Source: Mustelus asterias
Taxonomy: Eukaryota
NCBI RefSeq assembly: GCF_964213995.1
Contig: NW_027590284.1
Coordinates: 372,001-436,000, forward strand
DNA length: 64,000 bases
Reading direction: 5' to 3'
Shown here: in pieces, positions 45,531 to 62,107 of the stretch
Numbering within the stretch: the stretch's first letter is position 1
Layout of the letters: each line of letters starts with the position of its first letter
Translations under genes and position numbers: made by a program
The notes under the pieces: generated by a model
What the model saw: only the letters and a program-made list of their open reading frames with translations
What the model was told of the DNA's origin: nothing
Database searches by the model: none

Positions 45531-46515
45531 AACAAAAAGAAACCAACATCTGAGAGTTACGGAGCTTACTCACTGGAGACACCCGTCTTTGTTGTTTCTG
45601 CTGAATTGTTGACTTCCAGGAAGAAGGAAGGAAGGAAAGAAGGGGGAAGGAAGACAGCTATCGCCTGCCTGCCTGCCATCCGGCCTACCTGCCGTCCGGC
45701 CTGCCTGCATGCCTGCTGTCTGGCCGGCCTGCCATCCGGCCTGCCTGCCTGCTTGCTGCCGTCCGACGACTGGAGGGAGAGAAGACACAGAGAGAGTTTC
45801 TCTTTGTTGTTTTTTCCATCTACAGGAAGGAGGACTTAAACATTTCAACATCAAGGGACTGAGTGGCTGGGCTGGTGCCCTCATCATCAGAATGTCGGTG
45901 CCTGAAAAGGAGAGGGGGGAAGAATATGAAGACTGTTTTCCATCTGCAGGGATGGGGGTGAAGACACCCTGGACTTAAACTGTTTCGCCCAAGAGGGCTG
46001 AAGGAGCAAAGTCCCCCTACCTACTGCTGCCGCCCCCAACACCGGCACCCCGCCCCCCCCCCCCGACTGGGGCACCGGCCCTCCTCAGTGCCCTGTCCAT
46101 CGTCCTCCCTCCTGCTCCTCCAACCTCCTCTCTCTCTCTCTAACTCCGGGGAGTGAGCAACTGAACCCCCACCCACCTACCCCACCCTCCCTTATTTCCC
46201 TCTCTGATCTCGCCTTGCCACCTGGGCAGAGACGCCCATTACCTATCCCTCCTACTACTAGAGAATTCATTCCCTGTTTTGTCAGTGACAGAAAATTTCA
46301 CAATTCAATGTGACAGAAAAAGAACTGAGACACACACACTCACACACCCGAGTGAGAGTGCTCCAGTGAACTGACTGTGAATAGAGCTTTAACCAGTTAC
46401 ACAGCCTGAAAAACACCACACCATTCACAGTGGGGAGAAACCATACACATGGTCTGTATGTGGATGAGGCTTCAACTAATCATCCAACCTGGAAAGACAG
46501 AAGGACACCAGCACC

Positions 46516-47034
46516 ATGGACAAACCGTGGAAATGTGAGGATTCTGGTAAAGGATTCAATTATCCATCCCGGTTGGAAACCCATCGACACGGTCACATTG
46601 GGGTGGGGAAAATGGAGAAACCATGGAAATGTGATGATTGTGGTAAAGGATTCAATTATCCATACTTGCTGGAAAACCATAGACACAGTTACACTGGAGA
46701 GAGGTCATTCACCTGTTCTGTGTGTGGGAAAGGATTCACTACCTCATCCCACCTGCTGTTACACCAGCGAATTCACACTGAGGAGAGGCCGTTCAGCTGC
46801 TCCACCTGTGGAAAGCGGTTCTCATGTTCATCCAACCTCAGTGCACATCAGCGAGTTCACACCGGGGAGAAACCATTCACCTGCTCTGATTGTGGCAAGG
46901 GATTCAGTCAATCATCCAACCTGGTAAAGCACCAGCGAATTCACACTGGGGACAGGCCATTCACCTGCTCCGTGTGTGGGAAGGGATTCACTCAGTCACC
47001 TCACCTGCTGAAACACCATCATGTTCACGAGTGA
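46516..47034 (+). CDS. C2H2 zinc-finger protein, 172 aa (4 intact + 2 degenerate fingers)
   Basis: Duplicated M(D/E)KPWKC unit (46516, 46612); finger 1 Cys to Ser, finger 2 His to Tyr; ends HE*. Confidence 0.85.
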   Translation: MDKPWKCEDSGKGFNYPSRLETHRHGHIGVGKMEKPWKCDDCGKGFNYPYLLENHRHSYTGERSFTCSVCGKGFTTSSHLLLHQRIHTEERPFSCSTCGKRFSCSSNLSAHQRVHTGEKPFTCSDCGKGFSQSSNLVKHQRIHTGDRPFTCSVCGKGFTQSPHLLKHHHVHE

Positions 47035-49010: not shown

Positions 49011-50410
49011 AACATAAGAACTAGGAGCAGGAGTAGGCCATCTGGCCCCTCGAGCCCTCATGGCTGATCATTTTGTGGACTCAGCTCCACTTACACACCC
49101 GCTCACCATAACCCTTACTTCCTTTACTGTTTAATAATTGATCTATCCTTGCCTTAAAAACATTCAATGAGGTAGCCCCAACTGCTTCACTGGGCACGGA
49201 ATTCCACAGATTCACAACCCTTTGTGTGAAGAAGTTCCTCCTCAACTCAGTCCTAAATCTGCTTCCCCTTATTTTGAGGCTATGCCCCCAAGTTCTAGTT
49301 TCACCCGCCAGTGGAAACAACTTCCCTGCCTCTATCTTATCTATTCCCTTCATAATCTTATATGTTTCTATAAGATCTCCCCTCATTCTTCTGAAGTCCA
49401 ATGAGTATAGCCCCAGTCTATTCAGTTTCTCCTCATAAGCCAACCCTCTCAACTCCGGAATCAACCTCGTGAATCTCCTCTGCACCCCCTCCAGTGCCAG
49501 TATATCATTTCTCAAGTAAGGAGACCAAAACTGTACACAGTACTCCAGGTGTGGCCTCACCAGCACCTTCTACAGCTGCAATAATCTTGCTGTTTTTAAA
49601 CTCCATCCCTCTAGCAATGAAGGACAAAATTCCATTTGCCTTCTTAATTACCTGTTGCACCTGCAAACCAACTCTTTGAGATTCCTGCACAAGGACACCC
49701 AGGTCCCTCTGCACAGCAGCATGCTGCAATTTTTTACCATTTAAATAATAGTCCATTTTGCTGTTATTCCTACCAAAATGGATGACCTCACATTTACCAA
49801 CATTGTGCTCCATCTGCCAGACCCTCGCCCACTCACTTAGATTATATATATCCCTTTGCAGACTTTCAGCGTCCTCTGCACACTTAGCTCTTAGTGTCAT
49901 CTGCGAATTTTGACACACTACACTTGGTCCCCACCTCCAAATCATCGATGTAAATCGTAAACAATTGCGGTCCCAACACTGATCCCTGAGGCAAACCACT
50001 AGTCACTGGTCGCCAACCAGAAAAACACCCATTTACCCCCACTCTTTGCTTTCTGTTCGTGAACCAATCCTCTATCCATGCTAATACATTACCCGTGGCA
50101 CTGTGCACCTTTATCTTATGTAGCAGTCTTTGGTGCGGCACCTTGTCAAATGCCTTCTGGAAATCCAGACACACCACATCCACAGGTTCCCCTTTGTCCA
50201 CTGCACATGTAATGTTCTCAAAGAATTCCACCAAATTAGTCAAACATGACCTGCCCTTCATGAACCCATGCTGTGTCTCACCAATGGGACAATTTATATC
50301 CAGATGTCTCACTATTTTTTCCCTGATGATAGATCCAAGCGTTTTCCCTCCGACAGAAGTTAAGCTAACCAGCCTATAGTTACCTGCCTTTTGTCTACCT
50401 CCTTTTTTAA
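49011..50410 (-). mobile_element. 5'-truncated CR1 LINE (~1.4 kb)
   Basis: ORFs 49884-50312 ([42 protein letters not shown]) and 49081-49566. Confidence 0.96.
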
Positions 50411-51134
50411 ATGTTTGTGATTTTGTGAAACCTGTTTTTGTTGTCTGAGCTGACTGGAATTAGAGCCAGAGCAGGAGTAATCCAGGGGAATGATTTGGAG
50501 GTAAAGCAAAATCCAGCAGATGCTGGAATTCTGAATAAAACAGACCTGCTGAGTTTATCCAGCATTTTCTCTATTTATTATAATGAGTTGGGGACCTGGG
50601 TTTGAATCCCACCACGTTTCAATAAAAATATTGATGAGCATGAATTAATTGTTGTAAAAACACATCTGGTTCTCTAATGCCCTTTAAGGAAGGAAATCTG
50701 CCGCCCTGATCCAGTCTAACCGACATGTGACTGGATTCACAAACAATTCAAGGGCTGACTGGGTAAACAGGGAATGTCACCATCAGAAAAACAGAGCCCC
50801 TGGAGGGCAGAAGGGTTAGGACAGGTTATGGAGAGGTTAAAACTGTCATCATTGAGAACAACACAGACTTTAATGGAACAACTGGTCCCAAAAACAATCT
50901 CTTGTAGTTAGTGTGGCAGGGTGTGGTGAATCAGGTTTAAAAAGAGTCAAATTATATATGTTTTCTAGTTTGGACAACCACATTTAAATCTGGGACTCGG
51001 ATGAGGATATGAATTGGTGTTTGGTGGTAAGATCTAAATGTGTGTATTACGCCTGGAAGCCTTAAACCCAGAGTGAGAATATTTCAAACCAGGGTTCAAA
51101 ATGAACGGCTGTGGATGGTGAATTCACCCTCAAA

Positions 51135-52973: not shown

Positions 52974-53897
52974 TCACTTGTGAACTTGTTGATGTCTCAG
53001 GAGCCATTGTGACTGAGTGAATCCCTTCCCACACACAGAGCAGTTGAATGGCCTCTCAGTGTGAGTGCGTTGGTGAGCCAGCAGGTTGAAAGACTTTGCG
53101 AATCCCTTCCCACACGCGGAGCAAGTGAATGGCCTCTCCCCTGTGTGAACTCGCTGGTGAGCAGAGAGGTTGGATGACCGATTGAATCCCTTCCCACACA
53201 CGGAGCATGTGAATGGTCTTTGTGCAGTGTGAGTGCGTCGGTGAGCAGTGAGGTTGGATGACTGCCTGAAATTCTTTCCACAGTCAGTGCAGCTGAATGG
53301 CTTCTCTTCAGTGTGAATTTTCTGGTGTCTCAGCAGACTGGATAAAACTGTGAATCCCTTTCCACACAAAAAGCAAGTAAACGGTCTCTCCCCAGTGTGA
53401 ATTCGCTGGTGTGCAATGAGGGAGGATGCCTGTCTGAAACTCCGTCCACAGTCAGTGCAGCTGAATGGCTTCTCCTCAATGTGAACTCGCTGGTGTGACA
53501 GTAAGTGGGATGACCCAGTGAATCCCTTCCCACAGTCGGAGCAGGTGAACGGCCTCTCCCCAGTATGAACTCGCTGGTGTGACAGCAGGTGGAATGACTG
53601 AGTGAATCCCTTCCCACACACGGAGCAGATGAATGGTCTCTCCCCGGTGTGAGTGCGTTGGTGCACAGTGAGTGCTGAAGAATGCCTGAACCTCTTCCCA
53701 CAGGAGGTGCAGGTGAATGGCTTTTCCTCAGTGTGAATTCTCTGGTGAGACCAAAGGCCAGATGACTGAATGAATCCCTCCCCACAGACAGAACAGGTGA
53801 ACGGTCTCTCACCAGTGTGACTGCGCCGATGATTTTCCAGCAGGGAAGGGTAACTGAATCCTTTCCCACAGTCCCCACATTTCCACGGTTTCTCCAT
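52974..53897 (-). CDS. C2H2 zinc-finger protein, 307 aa, 11 intact fingers
   Basis: MEKPWKC start, uninterrupted array; family acceptor (tccttttacag) on - strand at 54230-54231. Confidence 0.93.
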   Translation of the reverse strand: MEKPWKCGDCGKGFSYPSLLENHRRSHTGERPFTCSVCGEGFIQSSGLWSHQRIHTEEKPFTCTSCGKRFRHSSALTVHQRTHTGERPFICSVCGKGFTQSFHLLSHQRVHTGERPFTCSDCGKGFTGSSHLLSHQRVHIEEKPFSCTDCGRSFRQASSLIAHQRIHTGERPFTCFLCGKGFTVLSSLLRHQKIHTEEKPFSCTDCGKNFRQSSNLTAHRRTHTAQRPFTCSVCGKGFNRSSNLSAHQRVHTGERPFTCSACGKGFAKSFNLLAHQRTHTERPFNCSVCGKGFTQSQWLLRHQQVHK

Positions 53898-54670
53898 GGT
53901 GCTGGTGTCCTTATGTTTCTCCAGGTTAAACGATCAGTTGAAGCCTCATCCACACACAGAACACGTGTACAGTTTCTCCTTGCTGTGAATGGTGTGATGT
54001 TTTTTAAGGCTGCGTAACTGGATAAAGCTCTTTCCACAGTCAACTCACTGAAACACTCTCACTCGGGTGTGCCTGTATCTTGGTGCTTTTTCAGTCACAC
54101 TGATGTTTGAAATCTTCTCCTCCAGACAGAAGACAAACATTTCTCCTTCCACATTCAAAGTCTGAGGATATTTAAGTCCAAGTGAATCGAGACTCTGTCT
54201 GATTTTGATGTGATGTTTCTTCACCTCACCTGTAAAAGGAGTTTACAAAATTAATCACTGTCAGTCCAGGATAGAAATTTTGAACAGACAATTCTAATTC
54301 TCTGGAACATTTCTTCCTCTCTTGTTCCCCAAATCAATAAATTCCTGTCCCACAAATTCTCCCTCCTCCCTTGGCTTAAATCCAAACCCATCTCACCATT
54401 TCTTTTCTCCACTCCCAGTTTTCTCCCTCCCTCTCCTCTGTCTGGGTTCAGTTCTCCAGCTCCTGTCTGCAGACTGACAATAAAACCAATGGGTCTTACT
54501 GGGGGTGTTGGTGCCTCCAGCGGGTGTTTGTGAATCCTCCCCGCCCACCTCCCAGGGTTTCCTTCCTTCCCAGAGATCAGAGTCCTCATTGATTTGAGGC
54601 CAAAGTGTAACCTCTTATTTATTGTCCCCCTCCCCCATCCTCTGATGTGAACCATCCTCCAGTGGCTGAG

Positions 54671-55156
54671 CCAGGATGGGGCCGTTAACCTGGGCCTGTT
54701 CCCGGGAGGGAGGGAGAAGCCCCGCAGCTGCAAACCAGGGAGCTGACAATGATTCTGAAGGGTTTGCGGATCCACAAAGTGTTTCCAAATCCTCCCAGCC
54801 ACCGCCGAACGCTGACTCCGCTTCTCCGGGACAAACAAGCGCCAAGGACAGCAATGACACAGCGCATGCTCCACATCACAATGCCCGGGCACTGATTGAC
54901 GGCAGCTCCGGACCAATAGGAAGAGGGGGCGGGGCTGGAGGACCGAACGGGAGCGGTTGGTCCTCCAACCAATCGGAGTGAAGGAAGGGCGGGGCTGGAG
55001 CAAATATTTCAGCACCGGGTGAAGCGCTGGAGCCGGCGGTTGGAGTTTGGGGAGGATCCGCAAACCCTTCAGAATCATTGTCAGCTCCCTGGTTTGCAGC
55101 TGCGGGGCTTCTCCCTCCCTCCCGGGAACAGGCCCAGGTGAACGGCACCATCCTGG
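54671..55156. promoter_or_regulatory. CpG-island core promoter flanked by 103-bp inverted repeats (54671-54773 / 55054-55156)
   Basis: Arms have 2 mismatches; spacer has CCAAT at 54913 and 54969, each followed by gggcggggctggag. Confidence 0.8.
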
Positions 55157-55339
55157 TTGGAGCTGGAGCATGCGCAGTGCCTGCGGCAGACGGGAAGGAG
55201 CTCGAGCGAGCGGGTTTTAAATGGAGATTTTTACAAAGACCGAGTGCAGATCCAGAGCCCGAAATAAAACCGGAAACATAAATGGAGTTTGCGGGTGGAT
55301 GGTGAGGCTTTATAAACACCCGGTGTCGGCCACAGTCCC

Positions 55340-58300
55340 TGTGGTGAACCATCGTTGGTTACCACTGGGGGTTGTTATTATGTTACTGTTGGGCTAGGGT
55401 GTTGTTACTGTGGGGGTTGTACAATGTTGTTGGGTTAGGGTGTTTACCTGTTATAAGTGTTATCATGGCACATCCCGGTGGGGCCCCGCCTCCGGTGGCG
55501 AGGTATAAGACCCTCTGCTCCGGCAGGACCCCTTCAGTCTGAACTGGTGTATTCGTGTTAGTAGTTCCATTGTTACACAATAAAAGCCTTCAATATCGAA
55601 GCCTTGGTTCCACGTGCTTGATTGTCGCGCATCAATTTTATTGTGTAACAGAAAACTCTCAGCTGTACAAAAAAAGAGTATGGAACAGATCTTAAAACCA
55701 GATCGTCTGGCGCTGGACCCACGTGCGGTCGGTGCCGCTAACACCTTCGACCACTGGTGGAAGTGTTTCGAAGACTACCTGGTTGCCTCTGTAGCTATCA
55801 CTACAGACAGTGACAAACTCCAAGTCCTCCACGCAAGGGTAAGCGACACGATTTATCTCGCGATTCGTGCGGCTCCCACTTACCCGAGGGCCGTCGAGCT
55901 CCTGAAGAAACGATACACGAAACCACCCAACGAGATACACGCTCGTTACCTCCTCGCTACATGACGTCGGCAGTCGGGCGAAACCATGGAGGACTACGCC
56001 AATGAGCTCCTGCAGCTTGCCAGGGGTTGCGATTGTAAAGACGTATCAGCCGAACAATATATGTACGACCTCGCCCGAGACGCGTTCGTAGCAGGGGTAG
56101 GGTCCTCGTACATCAGGCTTAAATTGCTGGAAAAGGGGAACCTCGACTTGACCCAAGCAATGGAGATGGCTGAGATGCTGGAAGCGGCGTCGAAAAGCTT
56201 GGCGCTGTACCCTGAGGACCACGTGCAGTCAACGTGGCAGGAGCAAGCTCAGCTCCCTCCTCGCCCCGCTAACCCGCGCTCCCAGATCGATCCGACGACG
56301 GCGGCAGCTCCAGGTGGCCAGCGATGCTATTTTTGTGGTGGGGCCAAGCATCCACGGCAACAGTGTCCGGCAAGAACGGCAACCTGCAGCCAGTGCGGTA
56401 AAAAAGGCCACTACGGTAAAGTCTGCAGGTCGAAGTCTAAAAACGGCAGTGCAGCTTGTAACCCTCCAGAACAGAGACAATCTCCTTCGGCGTTGCAGTA
56501 CCCACGAGGTCCGACCACGTGCGAACCCAGGACGGCGCCATCGTGGCTGACGGAGGAGGAGGAAGACCACCAGGAGTCGCTGCGTTTGGCGCCCTCGCCC
56601 ACGTGCGATTCATGGGGGCGGCCATCATGGTCCACGACGACTAGGAGCGACCAGCAGGGGTCCTCAGCATCAACATCGGCGGCATGCAGTGACGCCCAGG
56701 GGCCAACGGTGGCGTCGATCTCCCTGGACCAGACTAAGCACCACAGGCTTGAGAATTCCATGATGGATATAAAGGTAAATGGTCGAACTGTGAATTGTCT
56801 GTTTGACAGTGGGAGCACCGAAAGTTTCATACACCCTGAAACTGCTAAAAGGTGTGGACTCCGGGTTCTCCCTGCCAAGCAGACAATTTCCATGGCATCA
56901 CGGTCCCGGTCTGTACCGATCCAAGGACGATGTATGGTAACTCTTGAGGTACAGGGCACAATTTACGAGCAATACAGGCTCCTTGTGTTACCTCACCTTT
57001 GTGCGCCAATTCTCCTCGGACTAAATTTTATGGTCCACATGAAGAGTGTGATCCTACAGTACGGTGGGCCACTCCCTTCACTGGCAGTAGGGAATCAGCC
57101 GCAGGCTCCAAATTGCCCAAAGCGCCCCGCATGCAACCTTTCCACTCTGAAAATCACTACACCATCCCTCTTTAAGAATCTGGTACCAGGCTGCAAGCCC
57201 ATCGCTACTAAAAGTAGGCGTTACAGCGCTGAGGACCGGATCTTTATTAGATCTGAGGTTCAGCGGCTCCTCAAGGAAGGGATCATACAGGCCAGTGCTA
57301 GTCCGTGGAGAGCGCAGGTCGTGGTAGTCAAAAGCGGGAACAAACCTCGGATGGTCATCGACTACAGTCAGACCATTAATCGTTATACGCAGCTGGATGC
57401 GTATCCTCTCCCGCGCATTTCTGATATGGTCAATCAGATTGCGCAGTACCGAGTGTTCTCTACCATAGACCTTAAGTCCGCCTACCATCAACTCCCCATC
57501 CGCACAGAGGACCGACAATACACGGCTTTTGAGGCAGATGGTCGTCTATACCAATTCCTCAGGGTTCCATTTGGTGTCACCAATGGGGTCTCGGTCTTCC
57601 AGCGTGCTATGGACCGAATGGTGGACCAGAACGGGTTGCGGGCTACCTTCCCGTACCTGGATAACGTCACCATCTGCGGCCATGACCAGCAGGACCACGA
57701 CACGAATCTCCAACACTTTCTGCGCACCGCATCTCGCCTGAACCTGACCTATAACAGGGAGAAGTGCGTATTCCATACGCGCAGGTTAGCCATCCTCGGA
57801 TATGTGGTGGAAAACGGGGTCATTGGCCCTGATCCAGACCGTATGCGCCCCCTTACTGAACTTCCCTTGCCCGCTAGCACGAAAGCACTGAGGAGATGCC
57901 TCGGGTTCTTTTCGTACTATGCGCAGTGGGTCCCCAACTACGCGGACAAAGCTCGTCCGCTCATCAAGTCCACGACCTTCCCACTTACGCCGGAGGCCCA
58001 ATTGGCCTTCAAGGCTTTGAAAAGCGACATCTCGAAAGCCACGAAGCACGCGGTGGATGAATCCATCCCTTTCCAGGTGGAGAGTGATGCATCTGATTTC
58101 GCCCTAGCCGCCACACTAAACCAGGCAGGCAGGCCCGTCGCGTTCTTTTCCCGCACCCTTCAAGGCCCCGAAATTCGGCACTCAGCGGTGGAGAAGGAGG
58201 CTCAGGCCATTGTGGAGGCAGTCAGACACTGGCGCCATTACCTGGCGGGGAAGCGGTTCACCCTGATCACGGATCAACGATCTGTGGCGTTTATGTTCAG

Positions 58301-60014
58301 CAACACGCAGAGGGGCAAGATCAAGAACTATAAGATCTTGCGGTGGAGAATTGAGCTCTCCACCTATAATTACGATATTATGTATCGTCCAGGGAAGCTC
58401 AATGAGCCCTCGGATGCCCTCTCGCGAGGAACATGCGCCATCATGCAGGAGGACCGCTTGAAGGCCCTCCACAATGATCTGTGTCATCCTGGAGTCACCA
58501 GACTCTACCATTTCGTCAAAGCCCGCAACCTGCCCTACTCGGTGGAGGATGTCAGGTCAGTGACGAGAAGCTGTCGGATTTGCGCAGAATGCAAACCACA
58601 CTTTTATCGACCAGACCGGGCACAATTGGTCAAGGCCACTCGCCCTTTTGAGAGGCTGAGTGTGGATTTTAAGGGCCCCCTTCCCTCAACGGACCGGAAC
58701 GTCTATTTCCTCAACATAATAGACGAGTACTCCCGGTTCCCGTTTGTTGTCCCCTGTGCGGACACGTCGACTGCCACCGTCATCAAGGCATTCAGTGAGC
58801 TTTTTACCCTGTTCGGGTACCCCTGCTACATTCATAGCGACAGGGGCTCGTCGTTCATGAGCAACGACTTGAGGCAATTCCTGCTCTCATTCGGGATTGC
58901 CTCTAGTAGAACCACGAGCTACAACCCTAGGGGTAACGGACAGGTGGAAAGGGAGAATGCTACAGTCTGGAAGGCTGTCCTACTGGCACTGAAATCCAGG
59001 GGCCTTCCAGTCTCCCGTTGGCAGGAGGTCCTTCCAAATGCGCTCCATTCTATCCGCTCCCTCCTGTGTACGGCAACCAATGCTACTCCCCACGAGAGGA
59101 TGTTCTCATTCCCTCGGAAGTCGTCCTCGGGGATCTCATTGCCAGCCTGGTTGACGTACCCAGGACCCGTCCTTCTGCGGCGACATGTGAGGGCTCGCAG
59201 GTCCGACCCCTTGGTCGAACCGGTCCAACTCCTCCACGCCAACCCTCAGTATGCCTATGTGGCATATCCTGACGGGCGAGAGGACACTGTCTCCATTAGA
59301 GACCTGGCGCCTGCAGGGGACGTAGCAACTCCTGTCGCTCCTATTCCCCCAGTCACGAATCCACTACTCCTCATTGCTTCCCCAGACGTGGCGCGGTCAG
59401 CACCGGGACCAGTGCATAACAGTTCTACTCCCATGTACAGCTTGCCTGAGACTCGGAGATCGGCGCCACCACCGAAGGTTCCAGGATCCCCTGCACCATC
59501 GCCTCACCAGGGCCAACCGGCCCGGGAGTCCTTGAGGGGACAGCCGGACGTTGTTTTGGAGAGAACGCCACCGCAAGCACCTGCTCCGGTTTCGCAACCG
59601 GTGTTGAGGAGATCACAGCGTCGGTGCGGTCCTCCAGACCGTCTGGACTTGTGAATTCTGTATATATGACCTGTTTTTTCTTGCACCCCGCCGCCTTTTG
59701 TTTTTAAAGGAGGGGTGAATGTGGTGAACCATCGTTGGTTACCACTGGGGGTTGTTATTATGTTACTGTTGGGCTAGGGTGTTGTTACTGTGGGGGTTGT
59801 ACAATGTTGTTGGGTTAGGGTGTTTACCTGTTATAAGTGTTATCATGGCACATCCCGGTGGGGCCCTGCCTCCGGTGGCGAGGTATAAGACCCTCTGCTC
59901 CGGCAGGACCCCTTCAGTCTGAACTGGTGTATTCGTGTTAGTTGTTCCATTGTTACACAATAAAAGCCTTCAATATCGAAGCCTTGGTTCCACGTGCTTG
60001 ATTGTCGCGCATCA
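55340..60014 (+). mobile_element. Full-length Ty3/Gypsy LTR retrotransposon
   Basis: 295-bp TG..CA LTRs (55340-55634, 59720-60014) with 2 differences; 5-bp TSD GTCCC (55335-39, 60015-19); PPT aaaggaggggtgaa 59706-59719; domain order PR-RT-RH-IN. Confidence 0.97.
55680..59654 (+). CDS. Gag-Pol polyprotein in a single frame, interrupted by one TGA (55962-55964)
   Basis: MEQILKPDRL.. is in frame with ORF 55986-59654; two CCHC knuckles, protease DSGS, RT (IDLKSAYHQL, VPFG, YLDN), RNase H (DASD, EKEA), integrase HHCC + DDE; no env or chromodomain seen. Confidence 0.93.
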
Positions 60015-60076
60015 GTCCCTCAATTTGCAAAGCAAATTCCTCAGACCTTCTGATGGTTTCAGGCCGGAGTTCAAAT

Positions 60077-60185
60077 CCGCCATGTTTATAAAGGTCCGTG
60101 TACTGCAAAGCGCATGCGCATCCGCCATCTTTATTGAGGTAAATTGGAACAACGCATGCGCAGCCACCGTATTTGTTGAGGGTGA
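60077..60185. promoter_or_regulatory. Tandem YY1-like (ccgccatntt) + NRF1-like (gcgcatgcgc) modules
   Basis: ccgccatgtt 60077, gcgcatgcgc 60110, ccgccatctt 60122, acgcatgcgc ~60152. Confidence 0.55.
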
Positions 60186-60321
60186 AACCAAATGAATAAC
60201 CCACAGGGGACAAAAAAAATCAGAGTTTGATTTCATAACAAAATCGATGTGTTGTTGTAAAACTGGAAGTTAGGGTTACAGCCAACAACAACTTCTATTT
60301 ATATAACACCATTAATATCAG

Positions 60322-61124: not shown

Positions 61125-61573
61125 CTCTGCTCAGGGAAGAGGGAGAGTGTATGGGACAGATTTACTGTTTTGGGGAACAAGAGCAGAAAAGTTGTTCCTT
61201 AGAAATTAGACTTGTCTGATCAGAATTTCTATCCTGGACTGACAGTAGTTTTGTAAACTTCTTCTTTTGCAGGATATTTGATGGGGAAGATTTACAGTCA
61301 GAAAAATTGAATCAAGATTTAACAGTCGCTCAATTCACCAGCACCTGAACACGATCAGACTTTGAATGTGGAGTGCGGGAAAAGATTTCAAACATCAGTG
61401 TGACTGGAAAAGCACTGAGACAGACATACACCCGAGTGAGAGTTTTCCAGTGAACTGACTGTGGAAAGAGCTTTAACCAGTTACACAGCCTGAGAAAACA
61501 TCACACCATTCACAGCAATGTGAATCTGTGCATGTGTTCTGTGTGTGGACGAGGCTTCAACTAATCACTCAAT

Positions 61574-62107
61574 ATGGAGAGACATGATGATACTGACACC
61601 ATAGAAAAACCGTGGATATGTGGGGACTGTGGGAAAGCATTCACTTGCCCATCCAAACTGGAAACTCATCGACGCACCCACACAGGGGAGAGACCCTTCA
61701 CGTGTCCCGTGTGTTGGAAGGAATTTACTCAATCATCCTGCCTAACATTACACCAGCGAGTTCACACAGGAGAGAGACCATACACTTGCTCTGTGTGTGG
61801 GAAGGGATTCGTCCAGATGTATAACCTACAATTACACAGGAGAGTTCACACTGGAGAGAGGCCGTTCACCTGCTCCGTGTGTGGGAAGCGATTCATTAAT
61901 TCATCCAACCTTGTGACACACCAGCGAGTTCACACTGAGGAGAGGCCATTCAGCTGCACTGACTGTGGAAAGAGCTTCAGACATTCATCCAGCCTCAAAG
62001 CACATCAGCGACTTCACACTGGGGAGAGACCATTCACCTGCTCAGAGTGTGGGAAGGGATTCACTACCTCCTCCCACCTGGTGACACACCAGCGACTTCA
62101 CGAGTGA
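61574..62107 (+). CDS. C2H2 zinc-finger protein, 177 aa, 6 intact fingers
   Basis: Family acceptor cttttgcag at 61272; TGERPF linkers; ends HE*. Confidence 0.9.

What the first reader, a model, noticed from the sequence alone, without database searches (positions are those of the whole stretch)
55571..55650. Gypsy element whose primer-binding site pairs with its own LTR: self-priming and/or poly(A)-signal occlusion
Seen: there is no TGG tRNA-type PBS after the 5' LTR. One nt past the LTR end lies TTTTATTGTGTAACA (55636-55650), the exact 15-nt reverse complement of TGTTACACAATAAAA in the LTR (55571-55585), which contains the AATAAA (55579-55584). The 3' end of the LTR strand of this duplex points into U5, which is PBS/primer geometry. 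Known: Tf1/sushi-group elements self-prime, but with the first nucleotides of their transcript. Inference: the TATA box (55504) predicts a start about 35 nt upstream of the paired segment, so the primer would be internal or come from the 3' R copy. The same helix would hide the poly(A) signal only at the 5' LTR, so one structure could do both jobs.
Basis: partly seen in the sequence, partly recalled or inferred. Interest (0 to 1): 0.85.

Follow-up and report, generated by a model that had tools for sequence, protein, structure and literature searches.

The report
Self-priming shark Gypsy with fold-back fossils
This shark jumping gene and its relatives from other animals carry, where DNA copying must start, a perfect mirror of a short stretch of their own terminal repeat instead of a tRNA site, so they likely prime reverse transcription with their own RNA, and the genome holds many fold-back insertions joined at exactly that pairing.

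Summary
Observation confirmed: a 4.7-kb chromodomain-less Gypsy element (LTRs 55340-55634, 59720-60014; 5-bp TSD) has no TGG primer site; 55636-55650 is the exact complement of LTR 55571-55585. It is no accident. In 59 own-genome elements the eight unselected helix positions are Watson-Crick in 444 of 472 cells across 27 sequence types, and they diverge about 2.5 times faster than four-fold RT sites. 24 of 27 testable metagenome relatives keep an 11-19 bp helix in the same register (LTR-end CA, one base, TTT; LTR arm ending AAA before RCC). New here: 57 of 103 examined over-extended junctions are integrated fold-back elements (LTR + inverted U3-R, perfect TSD), joined at this helix. Best reading: tRNA-independent self-priming, likely from an internal leader cut about 50 nt after a predicted start; cleavage, start and primer origin are untested (no RNA data). 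Poly(A) occlusion is predicted for shark copies, but only 10 of 19 other families have the signal in the helix, so it is secondary. Self-priming is known (Tf1/sushi); this non-chromovirus, internal-primer form was not found in ten literature searches. This scan reported the lineage before in other genomes; a word search found no earlier fold-back note.

The parts
55335..55339 (+). Left target-site duplication (GTCCC)
55340..55634 (+). 5' LTR, 295 nt, TG...CA
55504..55509 (+). TATA box (predicted)
   Evidence: TATA lies 82-88 nt before the helix end in 56 of 59 related elements
55534..55538 (+). Inr-like TCAGT; predicted +1 at 55536
   Evidence: TATA-to-Inr 31-33 nt in 54 of 59; not mapped by RNA
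55571..55585 (+). LTR arm of the helix = predicted 3' part of the self-primer (transcript nt +36 to +50); predicted cut after 55585, AAA^GCC
55579..55584 (+). AATAAA inside the helix arm
   Evidence: predicted unpaired probability at most 0.05 once the PBS is transcribed
55586..55635 (+). 50-nt loop (rest of R, U5, one spacer base) = predicted template of minus-strand strong-stop DNA
   Evidence: inference
55636..55650 (+). Primer-binding site, complement of 55571-55585, no TGG
55680..55964 (+). gag 5' part, ending at an in-frame stop (55962-55964) in this copy
   Evidence: 3 of 28 close copies have a stop in this stretch
55965..59654 (+). Rest of gag-pol in the same frame: two CCHC knuckles, protease, RT, RNase H, integrase; no chromodomain, no env
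59706..59719 (+). Polypurine tract abutting the 3' LTR
59720..60014 (+). 3' LTR; AATAAA at 59959-59964 has no PBS partner here
60015..60019 (+). Right target-site duplication (GTCCC)

Best explanation
The element has a primer site that is the exact, covarying complement of a stretch of its own LTR, and it likely primes reverse transcription with its own RNA: the predicted 50-nt 5' leader would pair with the site and would be cut at AAA^GCC, likely by the element's RNase H, to free a 3' end pointing into U5. Shown: the helix, its register at LTR end +2, its covariation, the lack of a tRNA-type site, and integrated fold-back products joined at the helix. Inferred: start site near 55536, the cut, the enzyme (by analogy to Tf1), minus-strand strong-stop DNA of about 50 nt transferring through the short R part behind the cut, and plus-strand copying of the primer, which would write each new LTR variant into the next generation's primer site and so explain pure Watson-Crick pairing despite fast change. 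The plus-strand strong-stop DNA then ends in a copy of the site that can snap back (or pair with a second molecule) on R; extended to the U3 end and integrated, that would give the fold-back elements. Hiding AATAAA at the 5' LTR is a likely side benefit in the shark branch.
For: 59 own-genome elements: positions 8-15 (not fixed by the search pattern) 444 of 472 Watson-Crick, 11 G-U, falling to background at position 16; 27 LTR types, 196 of 216 matches against permutation mean 101, maximum 132 of 20,000. The 8-mer diverges about 2.5-fold faster than four-fold RT sites among close pairs (0.205 vs 0.078; 0.376 vs 0.153) and faster than flanking LTR and gag. Metagenome relatives (42-68% protein identity): 24 of 27 testable loci have an 11-19 bp helix above the best of 20 shuffles, nearly all starting CA-N-TTT and ending AAA before RCC. 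Control: a TGG-type Gypsy family of the same genome gives at most 7 bp. Fold-back: 57 of 103 loci are LTR + one base + inverted U3-R with a perfect direct 5-bp TSD; arm mismatch median 1.5%, like ordinary LTR pairs. Two arms stop at 54 and 55 nt, next to the predicted +1 at 53 (L264, L288), and two elements with gag in place carry 23-nt extended sites (L251, L252). Tf1 precedent: RT cleaves the self-primer, and the PBS is copied into single-stranded DNA at the cDNA 3' end (PMC5341516, PMC11042837).
Against: No RNA start, cut or primer was observed. Only 2 of 9 arms that end inside the LTR stop near the predicted start; most run through it to the U3 end, and 6 run on through the PPT into pol, which fits a 3' R primer or aberrant transfer equally well. 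Fold-back priming has the opposite polarity to the proposed minus-strand priming, so it shows that the pairing is used during reverse transcription, not which RNA is the primer. In Ty1 and Ty3 the primer sequence is not inherited (PMC5371799), so templated covariation is an assumption. Faster-than-neutral change of the LTR arm is not explained by copying alone. Pairs are not independent. Three of 27 relatives lacked the helix (L036, L044, L106).
Confidence: 0.58

Rival explanations
1. Self-priming from the 3' R copy: the R segment at the RNA's 3' end (same or co-packaged RNA) pairs with the site and is trimmed to AAA-3'.
For: Six fold-back arms read through U3 and the PPT into pol (L253, L257, L271, L274, L284, L314), as read-through into a long 3' primer would give; in 5 elements the site matches the 3' LTR rather than the 5' LTR.
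Against: In 7 elements the site matches the 5' LTR only, so mismatches are about symmetric, as after-insertion decay predicts; the 5' copy lies 50 nt away and is predicted to pair as soon as the site is made; mis-transfer onto the 3' R explains the six as well.
Confidence: 0.15
2. Plain Tf1-type self-priming: the functional transcript starts at the helix, so the primer is the first 15 nt.
For: All tested self-primers are 5'-terminal (PMC4600332, PMC10085805); Tf2 uses alternative starts (PMC5341516); the helix ends sharply at about 15 bp.
Against: TATA-to-Inr spacing is conserved 50-55 nt before the primer end; R would then begin only 8 nt before its own AATAAA; no pretzel side helices were seen.
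Confidence: 0.13
3. The helix only regulates RNA (hides the 5' poly(A) signal, or packages or protects the RNA), and some other primer starts DNA synthesis.
For: AATAAA is invariant in the shark set (selected for by the pattern) and predicted hidden only in the 5' context (at most 0.05 unpaired vs 0.3-0.98); HIV-1 hides its 5' signal in a hairpin (recalled).
Against: 9 of 19 non-shark families lack a canonical signal in the arm and 3 have one free in the loop; a purely structural helix need not start exactly one base past the LTR, nor avoid G-U pairs; no other primer site exists.
Confidence: 0.09
4. A host tRNA, tRNA half or other small RNA primes at this site; the LTR match is incidental.
For: Half-tRNA primers exist in Copia lineages (PMC6317226); only tRNA-Lys and tRNA-Cys genes were compared here.
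Against: No TGG; 34 different 8-mers in 59 sites of one genome, each tracking its own LTR; longest match to the 20 tRNA loci was 6 nt.
Confidence: 0.03

Closest known systems
Tf1/Tf2/Tj1 and the Tf1/sushi chromoviruses (self-primed Ty3/gypsy)
   Same: Primer site next to the 5' LTR is complementary to the element's own LTR RNA; no tRNA site; Gypsy domain order.
   Different: No chromodomain; primer predicted 35 nt inside the transcript rather than at its 5' end; arm ends in an AAA^RCC context that often is the poly(A) signal; no three-duplex pretzel seen; animal-wide clade outside the chromoviruses by features.
Tcn1 (Gypsy) and TAR (Copia) plant lineages, predicted self-priming (PMC6317226)
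   Same: Self-priming inferred from at least 10 bp complement starting 0-5 nt after the LTR; this element meets that paper's criterion.
   Different: Different superfamily branch and hosts; no internal-primer or poly(A)-signal geometry reported in the passages read.
Cigr-1 clade / Mag lineage of Ty3/gypsy
   Same: Short element, single gag-pol frame, two CCHC knuckles, no chromodomain, no env, no GPY/F motif seen, as in the Cigr-1 row of PMC2774666 supplement 3; language-model look-alikes are K02A2.6-like clusters.
   Different: No Cigr-1 or Mag reference sequence could be aligned, so placement is untested; no statement on their primer was found in the passages read.
HIV-1 poly(A) hairpin (recalled, not read)
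   Same: A helix hides AATAAA at the 5' end only.
   Different: Here the partner is the primer-binding site outside the LTR, and the signal is in the arm in only about half the clade.

Membership tests
Ty3/gypsy LTR retrotransposon | Direct LTRs TG..CA, TSD, PPT, PR-RT-RH-IN order | tested here: met
   best PDB match Ty3 Gag-Pol E 1.6e-61
Tf1/sushi group | PBS complementary to own LTR RNA, no tRNA site | tested here: met
Tf1/sushi group | Chromodomain at the integrase C-terminus | tested here: not met
   no chromo family among 8 Pfam hits
Tf1/sushi group | [quoted passage not shown] | tested here: inconclusive
   promoter motifs predict a start 35 nt upstream; no RNA data
Tf1/sushi group | Three-duplex pretzel around the primer helix | tested here: inconclusive
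   folds show a hairpin or stem starting at the predicted cut, with differing partners, and no conserved U5-to-downstream duplex; judged by eye
Tf1/sushi group | RT phylogeny inside the chromoviruses | not tested
   no chromovirus reference in the tree; only two own-genome outgroup families
Tf1/sushi group | RNase H-dependent release of the primer | not testable with these tools
   needs biochemistry
Cigr-1 clade | Two CCHC, GPY/F lost, no chromodomain, no env | tested here: met
   against the table row; GPY/F judged by eye
Cigr-1 clade | RT/RH clustering with Cigr-1 | not testable with these tools
   no reference sequence reachable; motif searches in three papers' supplements found none
tRNA-primed Gypsy (incl. 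Mag) | PBS complementary to a tRNA 3' end (TGG) | tested here: not met
   own-genome control family has TGG

The most novel reading that the evidence does not exclude
An animal-wide, non-chromovirus Gypsy clade evolved its own form of self-priming: an internal, capped 50-nt leader cut at AAA^RCC next to or inside the poly(A) signal, whose 8 variable bases act as a fast-evolving, self-copied family barcode under diversifying selection, and whose by-product is a class of integrase-inserted palindromic fold-back LTR elements that record the priming helix in the genome.
Probability: 0.4. Interest if true: 0.78.

Novelty: new variant of a known kind. Interest (0 to 1): 0.62.

Why it matters
It would extend tRNA-independent priming from the Tf1/sushi chromoviruses to a separate, very abundant animal Gypsy clade (over 11,000 LTR-PBS junctions in this genome), with a different geometry that makes exact predictions: start site, cut site, primer length. 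Such elements would be out of reach of tRNA-fragment silencing (inference) and are missed by tRNA-based PBS annotation. The fold-back insertions give a genomic record of reverse-transcription intermediates and a source of long palindromes; the fast-changing helix offers a test of selection on primer identity.

Tried and rejected
RNA evidence: no RNA holder listed; three contig runs of unknown kind laid on the element gave no start, end or poly(A) information; neither says anything about expression. Viral contigs: no relative. tRNA comparison reached only Lys and Cys genes (63 scored hits, 20 fetched), so it is weak. Clade naming failed: no reference sequence; gag search gave only 7 houndshark proteins; the tree is a quick one with two outgroup families and only shows the 53 rows as one long-branch group (SH-aLRT 99). 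Looked for a pile-up of extended arms at the predicted start: not found (2 of 9). Looked for the reciprocal product (inverted U5 joined to the site and gag): 3 pattern hits, 2 real (L373, L375), 1 unrelated. Rejected: assembly artefact for fold-backs (direct TSDs, unique flanks, arms as diverged as LTR pairs); host rearrangement for the TSD-flanked class (would not make a direct 5-bp repeat); Saci-2/lennie identity (tRNA sites); poly(A)-tail priming (only 3-4 T, then specific pairing). Of 80 metagenome loci, 47 gave no usable gag start and 6 had under 130 nt upstream; these 53 were dropped before the 24-of-27 count. One review on poly(A) occlusion (PMC12789967) was seen only as a search listing.

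Full report
Anatomy. The finding lies at the 5' end of a 4,675-bp LTR retrotransposon: LTRs 55340-55634 and 59720-60014 (295 nt, 2 mismatches), TSD GTCCC, a polypurine tract abutting the 3' LTR. One reading frame runs from ATG 55680 to 59654 with an in-frame stop at 55962-55964; 3 of 28 close copies have a stop in that stretch. Pfam finds protease, RT, RNase H and integrase in Gypsy order and no chromodomain; the best solved relative is Ty3 Gag-Pol. The genome is 3.68 Gb. The nearest named proteins are from rays and sharks (75-82%) and a houndshark (94% over the gag start), so the host is a shark; relatives at 60-66% come from a sea anemone, a whipworm and many unnamed assemblies.

Observation. 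Every coordinate is right. 55636-55650 is the exact complement of 55571-55585; no TGG follows the LTR. In 5,000 LTR shuffles the longest such helix was 9 bp. 29 of 30 near-identical copies printed the same pair; one was not parsed.

Covariation in the host. A pattern fixing only AATAAA...CA-N-TTTTATT has 14,391 hits against 1,942 for its control. I fetched 60 of the 100 listed hits, chosen by the LTR-like AATAAAAG start and without seeing the variable part; 59 are ordinary elements, one a fold-back. Helix positions 1-7 are fixed by my selection and carry no weight. Positions 8-15 are Watson-Crick in 444 of 472 cells, G-U in 11; at position 16 pairing falls to 5 of 59. There are 27 LTR 8-mers and 34 site 8-mers; with one element per LTR type, 196 of 216 match against a permutation mean of 101 and maximum 132. 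Where 5' LTR, 3' LTR and site disagree, the odd one out is spread about evenly (5 / 7 / about 5), as decay after insertion predicts. The 8-mer changes faster than its surroundings: 0.205 and 0.376 where four-fold RT sites differ by 0.078 and 0.153 (45 elements, pairs not independent), and 0.268 where the upstream 116 nt differ by 0.095. A helix kept only by double compensatory mutation should be slow; this one is fast and pure, which suggests that the site is rewritten from the primer in each cycle and perhaps that variants are favoured (inference). Control: in 20 Gypsy loci of other families from the same genome, the 16 with a detected repeat pair gave helices of 4-7 bp, and those with a resolved LTR end show a TGG site.

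Distant relatives. Of 80 metagenome loci, 27 had a gag start with at least 130 nt upstream; 24 have an 11-19 bp helix longer than the best of 20 shuffles; L036, L044 (site partly deleted) and L106 do not. Of the 6 dropped for short flanks, L052 and L076 show 14 and 15 bp and L090 9 bp plus further pairs. Where both LTRs are present the site starts one base after the terminal CA. The LTR arm ends AAA before RCC in nearly all, with loops of 31-69 nt, often opening with a hairpin right at that point; L081 is an exception in sequence but not geometry. All these rows form one group against the two outgroup families in a quick RT-RH tree.

Poly(A) occlusion. For this copy AATAAA is predicted at most 0.05 unpaired once the site is transcribed and 0.3-0.98 at the 3' LTR. 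But among 19 non-shark families (grouped by eye) only 10 have AATAAA or ATTAAA in the arm; L034, L037 and L102 have their only canonical hexamer in the loop. The conserved features are the register and the AAA^RCC end, which are primer features.

Start site. TATA lies 82-88 nt before the helix end in 56 of 59 elements and 31-33 nt before an Inr-like A in 54 of 59, so the predicted transcript starts 50-55 nt before the helix end. No RNA data could test this.

Fold-back products. L162 is a full LTR, one base, then the inverted LTR from AATAAAA back to the U3 end, with a direct TSD. Patterns for such over-extension gave 12, 66 and 114 hits (some shared), controls 0, against 11,236 junctions. I examined 103 (L162; 12 of 12; 30 of 66; 60 of 114): 57 reach the U3 end with a perfect 5-bp TSD, 29 reach it without a scored TSD (left LTR cut short, or a mismatch), 6 run through the PPT into pol, and 11 were classed as ending inside, of which L280 and L299 reach the U3 end by eye. 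Arms differ by a median 1.5%, as do ordinary LTR pairs. The other 9 end at 22, 23, 23, 36, 38, 54, 55, 164 and 167 nt; the two at 54-55 sit at the predicted start (53), with microhomology blurring the end. These insertions show that plus-strand DNA carrying the site pairs with R and is extended during reverse transcription, and that integrase accepts two U3 ends (inference from TSDs). They do not identify the primer.

Mechanism. Most likely the leader folds as it is made, is cut at AAA^GCC (by analogy to Tf1, where RT releases the self-primer: PMC5341516), primes about 50 nt of strong-stop DNA, and transfers through the R part behind the cut. Self-priming in some form I put at about 0.86; the 5' leader form 0.58, 3' R 0.15, Tf1-like start 0.13.

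Known systems. Tf1/sushi elements have a chromodomain, a 5'-terminal primer and a three-duplex pretzel (PMC10085805, PMC4600332); Tcn1 and TAR are predicted self-primers (PMC6317226). This element works like them but fails the chromodomain test, so it is not filed there. Its features match the Cigr-1 row of PMC2774666 supplement 3, and the language-model search points to K02A2.6-like clusters; placement is untested. Ten searches of the library showed no paper describing self-priming in this clade or such fold-back insertions; the library lacks most subscription papers, and Butler 2001, Goodwin and Poulter 2001, Simmen and Bird 2000, GyDB and Repbase were not seen. What I saw: passages of PMC6317226, PMC3601003, PMC6238403, PMC12471100, PMC4558846, PMC3670739, PMC4600332, PMC8556966, PMC6934838, PMC11042837, PMC2774666, PMC13524379, PMC5371799, PMC5341516, PMC10085805; supplement hits for PMC6238403 (1 file unread), PMC8556966 (3 files unread), PMC3670739 (1 unread), PMC2774666; only the listing of PMC12789967. 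The HIV-1 hairpin is recalled. This scan has at least five earlier notes on what seems the same lineage in other genomes, which are not independent support; searches for the fold-back class and for this LTR sequence returned nothing.

Verdict. Real, strongly conserved, best explained as self-priming; a new variant of a known kind. Interest 0.62: the mechanism class is known and untested here, but the internal primer, the fast-changing helix and the fold-back record make it specific and testable.

Noticed in passing
L162, L254, L255, L258, L266 and others (G000): Fold-back elements: full LTR + one base + inverted U3-R, about 450-620 bp, with direct 5-bp TSD; about 180 pattern hits against 11,236 junctions, 1 of 60 in the unselected sample.
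   Followed up: yes
L375:60-260 (reverse strand), L373: L375 has the U5 loop inverted between the two helix arms in front of gag; L373 starts with an inverted U5 end joined to the primer site.
   Followed up: partly
L155, L159: 5' LTR carries the helix type of one subfamily while 3' LTR and primer site carry another; possible recombinants between co-packaged RNAs or gene conversion.
   Followed up: no
window 55334-60017: Contigs of all three laid runs join the two flanks without the element, so an empty site exists (allele or paralogue); L002 and L011 share the same upstream flank on other contigs.
   Followed up: no
window 46480-47034, 52974-53933, 61565-62107: Three C2H2 zinc-finger arrays; the element sits between two GC-rich promoter-like stretches (about 54600-55300 and 60060-60190) of this cluster.
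   Followed up: no
window 54671-54773 / 55054-55156: 103-nt inverted repeat, 98% complementary, 280 nt apart, just upstream of the insertion.
   Followed up: no
window 55655-55679: Short hairpin between the primer site and the ATG in several shark subfamilies (by eye); in many invertebrate relatives the site ends 0-6 nt before the ATG.
   Followed up: no
window 49081-50459: Broken LINE-type reverse transcriptase pieces on the minus strand (family judged from recall).
   Followed up: no
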